Of a stretch of 64,000 nucleotides of DNA, positions 22,047 through 24,918 are shown in pieces. This stretch comes from the human T2T-CHM13v2.0 reference genome, Homo sapiens. Made by a program: the position numbers and the translations under genes. The notes under the pieces are model-generated. The model ran no database searches, was not told the origin of the DNA, and saw only the letters and a program-made list of their open reading frames with translations. Within the stretch, counting starts at the first letter, position 1; each line of letters begins with the position of its first letter. Location: assembly GCF_009914755.1 (NCBI RefSeq), contig NC_060929.1; one strand, written 5' to 3'.

Positions 22047-22389
<343 letters not shown>

Positions 22390-23535
22390 TCACTATTAGT
22401 GCTAAGAAAACATTAGGTGATAACTGCCAAATGTGTACACAGACAAGTGATATAAAAATTTAAAACAGAGGAACACACTTAGCTTAGCTTTAGGAGATTC
22501 TGGCATCTCATAGGAAAAGGGATCAAATTATAAATGATATACGTCTGGAAATTCAGTAAAAATAGTAGGTTGTGCACAGTGTTTTTGCCATAGTAGTGAA
22601 GGCACGGATTTCTTTTGTTTGGTGTTCTTGGGGACAAGATGACAAATGTAAAAGTCCCTTAATTAGTGAGAAATCACCAGCCTTCTTTGGATCTACCCCA
22701 CTTAGGGAGAGGAGATGGTAAAATGACGAATAAAGGGAAAAGTGACTGAGGAAAGAAAGGTGAGAGGAAGCTGCAGAGGCAGGAGGTGGAGGGAAAGTGC
22801 AGATCTGCTGGCGCGGGGTCTGGGGTCTCAGGTCTCGGCCGCCTGGGGAGCCACCTGCCTGGAGAGGCAGGTTGCGATGGCAGCGCTGGGCTACAGACCC
22901 CGCCTTATCTGCGGGGAGGAGAGGACGGGTGGAGTCACTTGCCGCATTGCCACAGCCCCCTCCTCCTAGTTTTAAGAAGAACCGAAGCATTGTTTCTGCT
23001 TTAACAGCAGTCACTCATTCCTTATAACTGAAAACAACGACGGTGGGCTCTGGCACCTCTTTCGGCTCCTTGTACTGTTGGAAAAAAAAGTCTGGGAAAA
23101 CGTGTACCTTGTTTTTTAAATGGGGATGATTGTGATAGCCAACAGGCATATGATAGTTTTATTTCCTTGCTTTTTCCCCCCAGTACATTGACGATTCTTT
23201 GTAGCTACTTGAACTGATTTTAAAGACATTTCGAAAGAACTATAAGTCAAGCTATAAAGTATTTGGCTTTTGCGGGAATAAAACACGCCTTTTGAGTCAA
23301 ACACAGGTCTTTCAGGCACTAAAAACAAGTAGGAAATGAGAAAAAAAATTAAAACCAGAAGACTTCAGGAAAGTGACAAATTGGAAAGCATTCTAGAAGA
23401 CTCATAGGACGACTTTATGTGAAAGAAGCACTCTAGGAGCTTTAAAAGCTTATGGGCAATTTATATTATAAAAGGATTTTAGGCTCAAAAGTTTTGGGGG
23501 AAGGCACAGAAAAAACAGTGCCATATTCTTAAATT

Positions 23536-23733
23536 GGCGGGGCGAGCAAAGGTCGTGGAGAAGACCCCGGGAAGCTGCTGGAGCCGGCAGAGGAGGAATC
23601 CCAGGTTTTGCGCGGAACTGGCCACTGTAAGTGGTTCAATGTGCGCATGGGATTTGGATTCATCTCCATGATAAACCGAGAGGGAAGCGCCTTGGATATT
23701 CCAGTCGATGTATTTGTACACCAATTCCTGTGA
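23536..23733 (+). pseudogene. LIN28B-derived coding segment (N-terminus and first half of the cold-shock domain), truncated
   Basis: Translates to GGASKGRGEDPGKLLEPAEEESQVLRGTGHCKWFNVRMGFGFISMINREGSALDIPVDVFVHQ then FL*. About 4 of 63 residues differ from LIN28B as I recall it. In-frame TAA at 23530-23532 immediately upstream. Confidence 0.92.
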
Positions 23734-23833
23734 TGTCACCAAATCCCCAAAAAGAAACACATGCCTAGGTGCTGTACTTTGTCTCTCTTTAGACATGTTG
23801 ATAAATGCTGTGAGATTCTGCTGTTTGAGGATG

Positions 23834-24105
23834 AGACAGGATCTCGCTCTGCTGTCCAGGCCGAAGTACAGTGTTGTGGTCATAGCTTGCTGTAACCTCA
23901 AGCTCATGAGCTCAAGTGATCTTCCCACCTCAGCCTCTCATGTAGCTAGGACTACAGGTGTACACTACCATGCCTGGCTAATTTTTTTCTTTTATTATTT
24001 TTTTTTTTTTTGGTAGAGACAGGGTCCCAGGCTGGCTTTGAACTGCTGGCCTCAAGTGATCTTCCTTCTTCCACCTCCCAAAGTGCTGGCCATAACACCT
24101 GGTCT
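23834..24105 (-). mobile_element. Antisense AluJ lacking its poly(T) tail, inside the retrocopy
   Basis: Begins abruptly at agacaggatctcgctctg with no T-run before it. Confidence 0.85.
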
Positions 24106-24918
24106 TTCTGAACATTTTCAATTGTATATTTTTATTTTACAAAGCCAGAGATATAAATAATATTCAAGGCATCCAAGAAAAAAAAATTTAAAACAGAAAA
24201 AGTTATTTTTCTCTCCTCCTAAGAGATTGAGTGAATGATCTTAAAGGGCTGGTAAAAATTGAGAAGGGTGGAGGGAAGTGTGGGGCGGGGGAAACATTTC
24301 AGGCAGAATTCTGTTTAGATGAGACCCCACACGCAAGTTGGGAAAGGTCCAAGCATATGGAGACAACAGAATCAATGTTACTAGAGCAGTTAACAGGGAA
24401 ACCAGGGTCGGATTTGAGTTTCCTCAATGGGAAGATAGGAGGGCTCCAGTGGAAAATCTCCAAGGTCATGTCAAACTCTAACTAGAATGTTACTAACTAG
24501 AATGTCTAACTAGAATGTCCAACTGTAATCTAATGTAGAATATCTAAACTGAATCTACTGTAACTCTAAAAATTGTTAAGGGTGATATCAACCAGTATTT
24601 AGGATTAGGAAGTATCTTTAGGGTTCCAGTCCTGGAGAGAGAATATGTTCATATCCAGGCCTTTGAGAAACTGACAAGATGAAAAGTATCAGTTTATAAC
24701 GTCATTATTTGAAGATAATTCATAAAAGAAACATTAAATCCACTAAAAATGGGAATATCATTTATTATTAAATAATGGAAAAATTTTATAGGGACAATCA
24801 TATTGCAAAGAGAAACTAAAGATTATTTTTTAAAAATCAATCTTACACTTAAAAATTTGTTTATAATAACAATTATGTCCTAATTCCTACAAGAAACAAA
24901 AATAGAATTAAGGATTGA

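What the first reader, a model, noticed from the sequence alone, without database searches (positions are those of the whole stretch)
22454..24197. TSD-bounded retrocopy of a non-canonical LIN28B transcript upstream of CCNG1
Seen: an identical 16-bp repeat aaaaatttaaaacaga at 22454-22469 and 24182-24197, an A-tail merging into the right copy, and a variant poly(A) signal TATAAA about 20 nt before the tail. Inside lies 188 nt (23537-23724) encoding the LIN28B N-terminus and cold-shock RNP motifs (GHCKWFNVRMGFGFI...DVFVHQ). Known: TSD plus A-tail at a T/AAAA site is the signature of L1-mediated target-primed reverse transcription. As I recall, the 188 nt match LIN28B exon 2 end to end. Inference: the template was not the standard mRNA, since canonical exon 1 (ATGGCCGAAG) and exons 3-4 (zinc knuckles) are absent. 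The insert would be a fossil of an alternative germline or embryonic LIN28B isoform. The ORF track misses it.
Basis: partly seen in the sequence, partly recalled or inferred. Interest (0 to 1): 0.9.

Follow-up and report, generated by a model that had tools for sequence, protein, structure and literature searches.

The report
Retrocopy of a non-canonical LIN28B transcript
This is a dead, reverse-transcribed copy of an unusual non-coding splice form of the LIN28B gene, pasted into chromosome 5 roughly 10-20 million years ago; it is an ordinary kind of genomic fossil that happens to preserve an otherwise undocumented transcript form.

Summary
The 16-bp direct repeat is exact at 22454-22469 and 24182-24197 and occurs nowhere else in the window. 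The 1712 bp between the copies map, in order and on one strand, to four blocks on chr6 of the same genome. Every internal block edge at the donor locus abuts GT or AG.

The blocks are:
- a 1054-nt upstream first exon that starts at the edge of a CpG-rich stretch;
- the 188-nt LIN28B exon 2;
- a 120-nt cryptic exon;
- a 351-nt terminal exon made from an antisense Alu.

The last two lie inside canonical intron 2. The canonical start-codon exon sits between blocks 1 and 2 and is skipped. In the LIN28B frame, a TAA lies two codons before exon 2 and a TGA three codons after it, so the template could not encode LIN28B.

Substitution divergence from the donor is 35 of 1690 (2.07%) and is even across blocks. 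This suggests a great-ape-age insertion.

The kind of element is well known: an L1-mediated processed pseudogene that preserves a splice variant. I could not test primate empty sites, GENCODE or RetroGenes annotation, or present-day expression.

The parts
22454..22469 (+). Left target-site duplication (16 bp)
   Evidence: Exact copy of 24182-24197, and only 2 matches in the window against 0.01 expected. The preceding bases ...AT|AAAAA give a bottom-strand TTTTT/AT, close to the L1 endonuclease preference. That motif is recalled, not tested.
22470..22475 (+). 6-nt filler (GGAACA) between the repeat and the start of homology
   Evidence: Only 3 of 6 bases match the donor bases upstream of block 1, against about 98% identity inside the block. 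This is probably untemplated or junctional sequence at the 5' end of the insert (inference).
22476..23536 (+). Block 1: alternative upstream first exon of the donor transcript (1061 nt here, 1054 nt at G000:C6:106129380-106130433)
   Evidence: 20 mismatches in 1054 aligned positions and 5 small indels. The donor 3' edge is ...AAATTG|gtgagt. The donor 5' edge has no AG and abuts a CpG-rich stretch, where two 250-nt windows have CpG observed/expected of 0.93-0.97. The sequence is unique in the genome.
23537..23724 (+). Block 2: LIN28B exon 2 (188 nt; donor G000:C6:106134115-106134302)
   Evidence: 183 of 188 identical, with donor edges cag| and |gtaagc. It matches Pfam CSD positions 2-30. The best hit among solved structures is LIN-28 homolog B.
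23725..23833 (+). Block 3: cryptic exon from canonical intron 2 (donor G000:C6:106136931-106137050, 120 nt). It carries the in-frame stop TGA at 23731-23733.
   Evidence: Donor edges are tag| and |gtatgt. There are 2 mismatches in 109 positions plus one 11-nt indel, which is a tandem duplication of an 11-mer present twice in the donor and once here. The stop is seen.
23834..24181 (+). Block 4: Alu-derived terminal exon from canonical intron 2 (donor G000:C6:106158835-106159185), with its polyadenylation site
   Evidence: The donor 5' edge is ...ttttag| within the T-rich end of an antisense Alu. There are 8 mismatches in 339 positions plus 3 indels. Positions 23833-24090 also hit many Alu copies genome-wide at 72-79% identity. 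Homology ends at ...CCAGAAAA| in the donor.
24152..24157 (+). Variant polyadenylation signal TATAAA (CATAAA at the donor)
   Evidence: It lies 20-24 nt before the end of homology. The single C/T difference from the donor is listed.
24178..24186 (+). A run of 9 at the insert/repeat junction (residual tail, ambiguous)
   Evidence: 24178-24181 align to a donor-encoded AAAA, and 24182-24186 are the first 5 bases of the right repeat copy.
24182..24197 (+). Right target-site duplication (16 bp)
   Evidence: Exact copy of 22454-22469.

Best explanation
Window 22454-24197 is an L1-mediated processed pseudogene (retrocopy). A spliced, polyadenylated RNA from the LIN28B locus on chr6 was reverse-transcribed at a nick in an A/T-rich target on chr5 and integrated, duplicating 16 bp of target.

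The template was not the LIN28B mRNA. It was a four-exon, non-coding form with this structure:
- It began about 3.9 kb upstream of the canonical start codon, at the edge of a CpG-rich stretch.
- It skipped the canonical start-codon exon and used exon 2.
- It then spliced into a 120-nt cryptic exon 2.6 kb into intron 2, which brings a stop codon after three codons.
- It ended in an exonised antisense Alu 24.5 kb into intron 2, polyadenylated after a variant signal.

The copy is dead on arrival and has drifted about 2% from its source. This places the insertion roughly 10-20 million years ago.

Shown: the spliced block structure, the splice dinucleotides, the repeat, the stops and the divergence. 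Inferred: L1 as the agent, the 5' end being a true transcription start, expression of the template in the germline or early embryo, and the date.
For: - The repeat is exact and unique in the window.
- Four colinear same-strand chr6 blocks cover 22476-24181 without gaps or overlaps. The window flanks included in the query (22400-22475 and 24182-24260) do not align to the chr6 region.
- All three inferred introns are GT...AG at the donor, and only one placement of each junction gives GT-AG.
It is followed by GT, lies 840 nt upstream of exon 2 and 2.8 kb downstream of block 1, and is not found in the window.
- Pfam CSD matches split as positions 2-30 at exon 2 and positions 30-65 at C6:106202369-106202476. 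Blocks 3 and 4 therefore lie in the intron between the two coding exons.
- The translated exon 2 is named LIN-28 homolog B by the search of solved structures.
- In frame, TAA lies at 23530-23532 and TGA at 23731-23733. The only ATG-started ORF in that frame is 28 aa. The junction-proximal bases that create both stops are the same in the donor.
- Substitution divergence is even across blocks: 1.9%, 2.7%, 1.8% and 2.4%, or 35 of 1690 overall. This is as expected for one insertion event.
- Within the Alu block, changes polarised against 6 other Alu copies fall on both lineages: 3 donor, 4 retrocopy, 3 ambiguous.
- There is no other copy of blocks 1-3 in the genome. All 5 of 5 candidates were scored: the window itself, the three donor blocks, and a 70% match on chr1 that I take to be the LIN28A paralogue.
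Against: - There is no unambiguous poly(A) tail. The 9 A at the junction are all explained by donor-encoded A or by the target.
- The 5' end could be a 5' truncation rather than a transcription start. The 6-nt filler cannot be mapped.
- CpG counts in block 1 are equal in donor and copy (23 v 23), so there is no methylation-decay asymmetry to support promoter status of the donor region.
- No outgroup genome was available, so the empty site has not been seen.
- No annotation or RNA data for chr6 was available, so the template isoform has no independent support here.
Confidence: 0.93

Rival explanations
1. The copy is 5'-truncated. The template began further upstream, for example at the known AluJb/LIN28B-TST start about 20 kb upstream or at another start. 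Block 1 would then be only the 3' part of a longer exon or of a retained intron, not a first exon with its own promoter.
For: 5' truncation is common in L1-mediated insertions (established knowledge). The 6 nt at 22470-22475 do not match the donor. LIN28B has documented upstream starts, according to passages of PMC10296230 and of bioRxiv 10.1101/2025.04.29.651292.
Against: The start of homology coincides with the downstream edge of a CpG-rich stretch, with CpG observed/expected of 0.93-0.97 over C6:106129000-106129500. That is where a start site is expected. There is no AG before block 1 in the donor, so it is not an internal exon.
Confidence: 0.25
2. The insert is a template-switch chimera. 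The L1 reverse transcriptase jumped between separate RNAs or pre-mRNA pieces of the LIN28B locus, so the insert does not reflect one spliced transcript.
For: Chimeric retrocopies made by template switching are known (established knowledge). Two of the four blocks are not canonical exons.
Against: All three junctions fall exactly at GT/AG pairs with good flanking consensus: G|gtgagt, polypyrimidine-cag|, tag|, |gtatgt, ttttag|. The blocks are colinear in genomic order on one strand. Template switching has no reason to land on splice sites three times.
Confidence: 0.02
3. A DNA-level duplication or rearrangement moved chr6 material to chr5, and the 16-bp repeat is a coincidence of A/T-rich sequence.
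For: The repeat is A/T-rich and the tail is not clear-cut.
Against: About 28 kb of intervening donor sequence is removed precisely at splice sites. The repeat pattern is expected 0.01 times in the window and sits exactly at both ends of homology. The 3' end of homology lies 20-24 nt after a polyadenylation signal.
Confidence: 0.01
4. The retrocopy has been co-opted, as an exon, a small-RNA source or a regulatory element near CCNG1, and is not simply dead.
For: It lies about 20 kb upstream of CCNG1 and inside an intron of the lncRNA LOC105377700 on the opposite strand (hub annotation).
Against: There is no RefSeq gene, exon or functional-element row at 22454-24197 in the hub table. There is no usable LIN28B-frame ORF. 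Four of the 5 exon-2 changes alter the amino acid: G>R, E>D, P>L and P>A, my reading of the base changes listed in the frame. Divergence is even across coding and non-coding blocks, as under neutral drift.
Confidence: 0.04

Closest known systems
L1-mediated processed pseudogenes (retrocopies) of human genes
   Same: An intronless copy of a spliced RNA on another chromosome. It has a 16-bp target-site duplication, an A/T-rich target and a 3' end just after a polyadenylation signal, and it evolves neutrally.
   Different: The template is a non-coding, non-canonical splice form rather than the mRNA. Only 188 of 1712 nt are protein-coding sequence of the parent. The tail has shrunk to nothing that can be told from templated A.
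Processed pseudogenes as 'genomic fossils' of splice variants (Shemesh et al. 2006, PNAS)
   Same: A retrocopy records an exon chain that differs from the reference mRNA, and so gives evidence for a variant expressed in the germline.
   Different: This is a single case, not a survey. Here three of four exons are non-canonical, including an Alu-derived terminal exon. I saw only the title of this paper, in the reference list of PMC5470649. The paper itself is not held, so its content is recalled.
AluJb-LIN28B / LIN28B-TST alternative-promoter transcript
   Same: A LIN28B transcript that starts upstream of the canonical promoter, skips canonical exon 1 and splices into exon 2 (passages of PMC10296230 and PMC10363060).
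   Different: That start is about 20 kb upstream, in an AluJb, and adds in-frame N-terminal residues. Block 1 here is unique non-repeat sequence 3.9 kb upstream of the ATG, and it ends with an in-frame TAA two codons before exon 2. The 3' structure also differs.
Alu exonisation with intronic polyadenylation; poison-exon (unproductive) splice forms
   Same: Block 4 uses an AG next to the T-rich end of an antisense Alu as acceptor. Block 3 introduces a stop 102 nt upstream of the last exon junction, which is typical of forms subject to nonsense-mediated decay (the rule is established knowledge).
   Different: Decay or any regulatory role was not tested. Without the canonical ATG the transcript may simply be non-coding.

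Membership tests
L1-mediated processed pseudogene | Exon-exon junctions that coincide with GT-AG introns at the parent locus | tested here: met
   Three junctions, with all six donor edges GT or AG.
L1-mediated processed pseudogene | Target-site duplication of about 7-20 bp flanking the insert exactly | tested here: met
   16 bp, exact, at both ends of homology. Only 2 matches in the window against 0.01 expected.
L1-mediated processed pseudogene | Untemplated poly(A) tail at the 3' end | tested here: inconclusive
   There are 9 A at 24178-24186. Four are donor-encoded and five are part of the repeat.
L1-mediated processed pseudogene | Polyadenylation signal 10-30 nt before the 3' end | tested here: met
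   TATAAA at 24152-24157, with CATAAA at the donor. That both are functional variants is recalled.
L1-mediated processed pseudogene | Insertion at an L1-endonuclease-like site (TT/AAAA on the top strand) | tested here: met
   The left junction reads AT/AAAAATTT. The consensus itself is recalled.
L1-mediated processed pseudogene | Empty orthologous site with a single copy of the repeat in an outgroup | not testable with these tools
   No primate genome other than the window's own is held.
Derived from the LIN28B locus | Coding segment is LIN28B rather than LIN28A or another cold-shock gene | tested here: met
   97.3% identity to the chr6 exon against 70% to the chr1 paralogue. The best solved-structure hit is LIN-28 homolog B at E 1.1e-24, against LIN-28 homolog A at E 3e-17.
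Derived from the LIN28B locus | All other parts of the insert come from the same locus, in order | tested here: met
   Blocks lie at C6:106129380, 106134115, 106136931 and 106158835. The next CSD exon is at 106202369.
Retrocopy of the canonical LIN28B mRNA | Contains the start-codon exon and the downstream coding exons (second half of the CSD, zinc knuckles) | tested here: not met
   The exon-1 motif is absent from the window. The insert is fully accounted for by four blocks, none of which is the CSD 30-65 exon.
AluJb-LIN28B / LIN28B-TST isoform | Start about 20 kb upstream in an AluJb, with an in-frame N-terminal extension | tested here: not met
   Block 1 is unique sequence 3.9 kb upstream of the ATG, with an in-frame TAA before exon 2. 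The definition is taken from passages of PMC10296230.

The most novel reading that the evidence does not exclude
The exon chain preserved here is upstream CpG-island start, then exon 2, then a stop-bearing cryptic exon, then an Alu-derived terminal exon. The most novel reading is that this chain is a real, still-produced and so far undescribed unproductive isoform of LIN28B. It would divert transcription away from protein output in germline or early-embryonic cells. The retrocopy would then show that this form was already abundant enough in the germline of an ape ancestor to be captured by L1. All splice sites and a variant polyadenylation signal are still intact at the human donor locus.
Probability: 0.3. 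Interest if true: 0.45.

Novelty: new member of a known kind. Interest (0 to 1): 0.3.

Why it matters
LIN28B is a dosage-sensitive regulator of let-7, developmental timing and cancer, and its alternative promoters are actively studied. This fossil gives sequence-level evidence for a further start site 3.9 kb upstream of the start codon. It also records a truncating route through intron 2 that was used in the germline lineage of an ape ancestor. Both can be looked for directly in long-read and CAGE data.

Beyond that, it is one more processed pseudogene. I found no sign that the copy itself does anything. RefSeq does not list it in this window. Whether GENCODE or the UCSC RetroGenes track lists it could not be checked.

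Tried and rejected
- Literature searches found no paper describing a LIN28B retrocopy. LIN28B + 'processed pseudogene' returned 28 papers; I read the titles and abstract starts of the 15 listed and saw none on this. LIN28B + 'retrocopy' returned 1 paper, about MKRN3.
- No search found the block-1 exon. LIN28B + 'alternative first exon' + isoform returned 16 papers, of which I read the 10 listed entries and saw none on it.
- No search found truncation in LIN28B intron 2. LIN28B + 'intronic polyadenylation' returned 16 papers. The one I opened, PMC11550612, concerns LIN28B-binding motifs, not the LIN28B gene.
- LIN28B-AS1 / 'upstream of LIN28B' led to PMC7262774, which only lists a candidate imprinting region far upstream.
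- These searches cover only the held library and its listings, so absence there is not absence in print.
- I looked for a CpG-decay asymmetry between donor and copy in block 1 as indirect evidence for a germline-unmethylated promoter. The counts are equal (23 v 23), so there is no signal.
- BLAST identities of 89% and 92% for blocks 3 and 4 first suggested unequal ages. Global alignment showed that the deficit is due to indels and that substitution rates are even.
- Polarising the Alu-block changes against 6 other Alu copies has little power. It gave 3 v 4 with 3 ambiguous, and the last rows fall outside the Alu where the alignment is unreliable.
- The Shemesh 2006 paper could not be read.
Full report
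**Observation**

AAAAATTTAAAACAGA occurs exactly at 22454-22469 and 24182-24197. Even with one mismatch allowed, these are the only 2 matches in the 64-kb window. Dinucleotide-preserving shuffles give an expected 0.01, and 0 of 100 shuffles reached 2 matches. The repeat cannot be extended by a base on either side. TATAAA lies at 24152-24157.

The A run at the right junction is 9 A long (24178-24186). Five of these are the start of the repeat, and the other four align to an AAAA present in the donor genome. There is therefore no residue of a tail that is demonstrably untemplated.

**Where the insert comes from**

The window's own genome could be searched. The 1712 bp between the repeat copies hit four places on contig C6, all on the + strand and in order, besides the window itself and many Alu copies. 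A local blastn was run with 70-80 bp of window flank added. It placed the blocks at window 22476-23537, 23536-23724, 23725-23833 and 23833-24181. The flanks did not align to the chr6 region.

Reading the donor sequence at each edge gives only one junction placement that puts GT and AG at every intron end:
- Block 1 ends ...AAATTG|gtgagt.
- Block 2 is cag|GCGGGG...CACCAA|gtaagc.
- Block 3 is tag|TTCCTG...GAGGATG|gtatgt.
- Block 4 begins ttttag|AGACAGG and ends at ...CCAGAAAA|gctgg.

About 28 kb of donor sequence is thus removed precisely at three GT-AG introns. This excludes a DNA-level duplication and makes template switching very unlikely.

**Identity of the blocks**

Block 2 is 188 nt in both places and 183 of 188 identical. 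Translated from 23536, it reads through the cold-shock motifs. Its best match among solved structures is 'PROTEIN LIN-28 HOMOLOG B' (4a4i_A, E 1.1e-24), ahead of LIN-28 homolog A.

A whole-genome scan with the Pfam cold-shock domain model puts profile positions 2-30 on this chr6 exon and on the window copy. It puts positions 30-65 at C6:106202369-106202476, 68 kb downstream. Blocks 3 and 4 lie 2.6 kb and 24.5 kb downstream of exon 2, so both are inside the intron that separates the two cold-shock coding exons.

It is followed directly by GT, and it lies 840 nt upstream of exon 2 and 2.8 kb downstream of the end of block 1. It is not in the window.

Block 1 is therefore an upstream alternative exon, and the canonical first exon was skipped.

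Block 1 starts at C6:106129380, with no AG before it. This is at the downstream edge of a CpG-rich stretch: the two 250-nt windows from 106129000 have G+C of 0.59 and 0.48 and CpG observed/expected of 0.97 and 0.93. That fits a transcription start, but it does not prove one. A 5'-truncated copy of a longer RNA remains possible, and I put it at about one in four. The six bases GGAACA between the repeat and block 1 match the donor at only 3 of 6 positions. I read them as junctional filler.

Block 4 is largely an antisense Alu, and positions 23833-24090 also hit Alu copies across the genome at 72-79% identity. Blocks 1-3 are otherwise unique. A search with 22470-23832 gave 5 candidates, all scored: the window itself, the three donor blocks, and a 70% match on chr1 that I take to be the LIN28A paralogue. 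This is therefore the only retrocopy of this transcript in the genome.

**Coding capacity**

In the LIN28B frame there is a TAA at 23530-23532, two codons before exon 2. There is a TGA at 23731-23733, three codons into block 3. The only ATG-started ORF in that frame is 28 aa.

The bases that make both stops are the same at the donor. The template itself, and not only the decayed copy, therefore could not encode LIN28B. The stop lies 102 nt before the last exon junction. By the usual rule (established knowledge), such a form would be a substrate for nonsense-mediated decay if it were translated.

**Age**

BLAST identities of 89% and 92% for blocks 3 and 4 come from indels. These are an 11-nt tandem duplication present at the donor and single in the copy, length changes in a T run, and a 12-nt gap.

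Global alignment gives these mismatch counts:

| Block | Mismatches | Aligned positions | Divergence |
|---|---|---|---|
| 1 | 20 | 1054 | 1.9% |
| 2 | 5 | 188 | 2.7% |
| 3 | 2 | 109 | 1.8% |
| 4 | 8 | 339 | 2.4% |
| Total | 35 | 1690 | 2.07% |

Eight of the 35 are CpG transitions, and divergence without them is 1.6%. The even spread across blocks fits one event followed by drift.

Four of the 5 exon-2 changes alter the amino acid. This is my reading of the base changes in the frame. In the Alu block, changes polarised against 6 other Alu copies fall on both lineages: 3 on the donor, 4 on the copy and 3 ambiguous, a test with little power.

With 0.5-1.0 x 10^-9 substitutions per site per year per lineage (recalled values), 2.07% corresponds to about 10-21 million years. 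It lies between the genome-wide human-gorilla and human-orangutan divergences as I recall them. The prediction is a great-ape-age insertion that is absent from Old World monkeys. No outgroup genome was available to test this.

**Mechanism**

The following together are the signature of target-primed reverse transcription by the L1 machinery acting on a cellular RNA (established knowledge):
- a spliced, polyadenylation-site-terminated insert;
- an exact 16-bp target duplication;
- a left junction reading AT/AAAAA;
- a parent on another chromosome.

L1 as the agent is inferred, not shown. Because the copy is inherited, the template must have been present in germline or early-embryonic cells. That too is inference, although it fits what is known of LIN28B expression.

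**Comparison with what is known**

Upstream LIN28B starts are documented. The AluJb-derived LIN28B-TST start lies about 20 kb upstream and adds N-terminal residues (passages of PMC10296230, and of PMC10363060). A preprint describes start-site switching in naive versus primed human embryonic stem cells (passages of 10.1101/2025.04.29.651292). Block 1 fits none of these descriptions: it is unique sequence 3.9 kb upstream of the ATG, and it closes the frame before exon 2.

Using processed pseudogenes as records of splice variants is an established idea (Shemesh et al. 2006). I saw that title only in a reference list, and the paper is not held.

Searches of the held library found no description of a LIN28B retrocopy. 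They also found no description of this exon chain. These searches cover listings and a few passages only. I could not see GENCODE, RefSeq models for chr6 or the RetroGenes track, so the copy or the isoform may already be annotated. RefSeq, as given by the hub for this window, has no row for it.

**Verdict**

The element is a dead processed pseudogene of a non-coding, non-canonical LIN28B transcript. It is a new member of a well-known kind. Its value is as a pointer to an upstream start and a truncating splice route at an important gene. Nothing about the copy itself looks functional.

Noticed in passing
window 22100-22340: An Alu with its own A tail (22323-22340) lies about 110 bp upstream of the left repeat copy. 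It is 86-90% identical to many copies genome-wide. It is outside the retrocopy and unrelated to it.
   Followed up: partly
L012 (G000:C6:106136976-106136997) v window 23770-23780: An 11-mer (GTCTCTCTTTA) is tandemly duplicated in the donor cryptic exon but single in the retrocopy. This is either a duplication at the donor after the copy was made or a deletion in the copy. An outgroup would tell.
   Followed up: no
L011 9000-9380 (G000:C6:106129000-106129380): A CpG-rich stretch lies directly upstream of the donor block 1, about 4 kb upstream of the canonical LIN28B start codon. It is a possible unrecognised or bidirectional promoter. Its relation to LIN28B-AS1 could not be checked, because no chr6 annotation is at hand.
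   Followed up: partly
G000, several contigs: The cold-shock-domain scan returned several full-length, uninterrupted matches to the 66-position model in open frames of 140-375 aa, for example on C14, C7, C16 and C9. Some have a stop inside. These look like intronless copies of Y-box-type genes (my guess, not examined).
   Followed up: no
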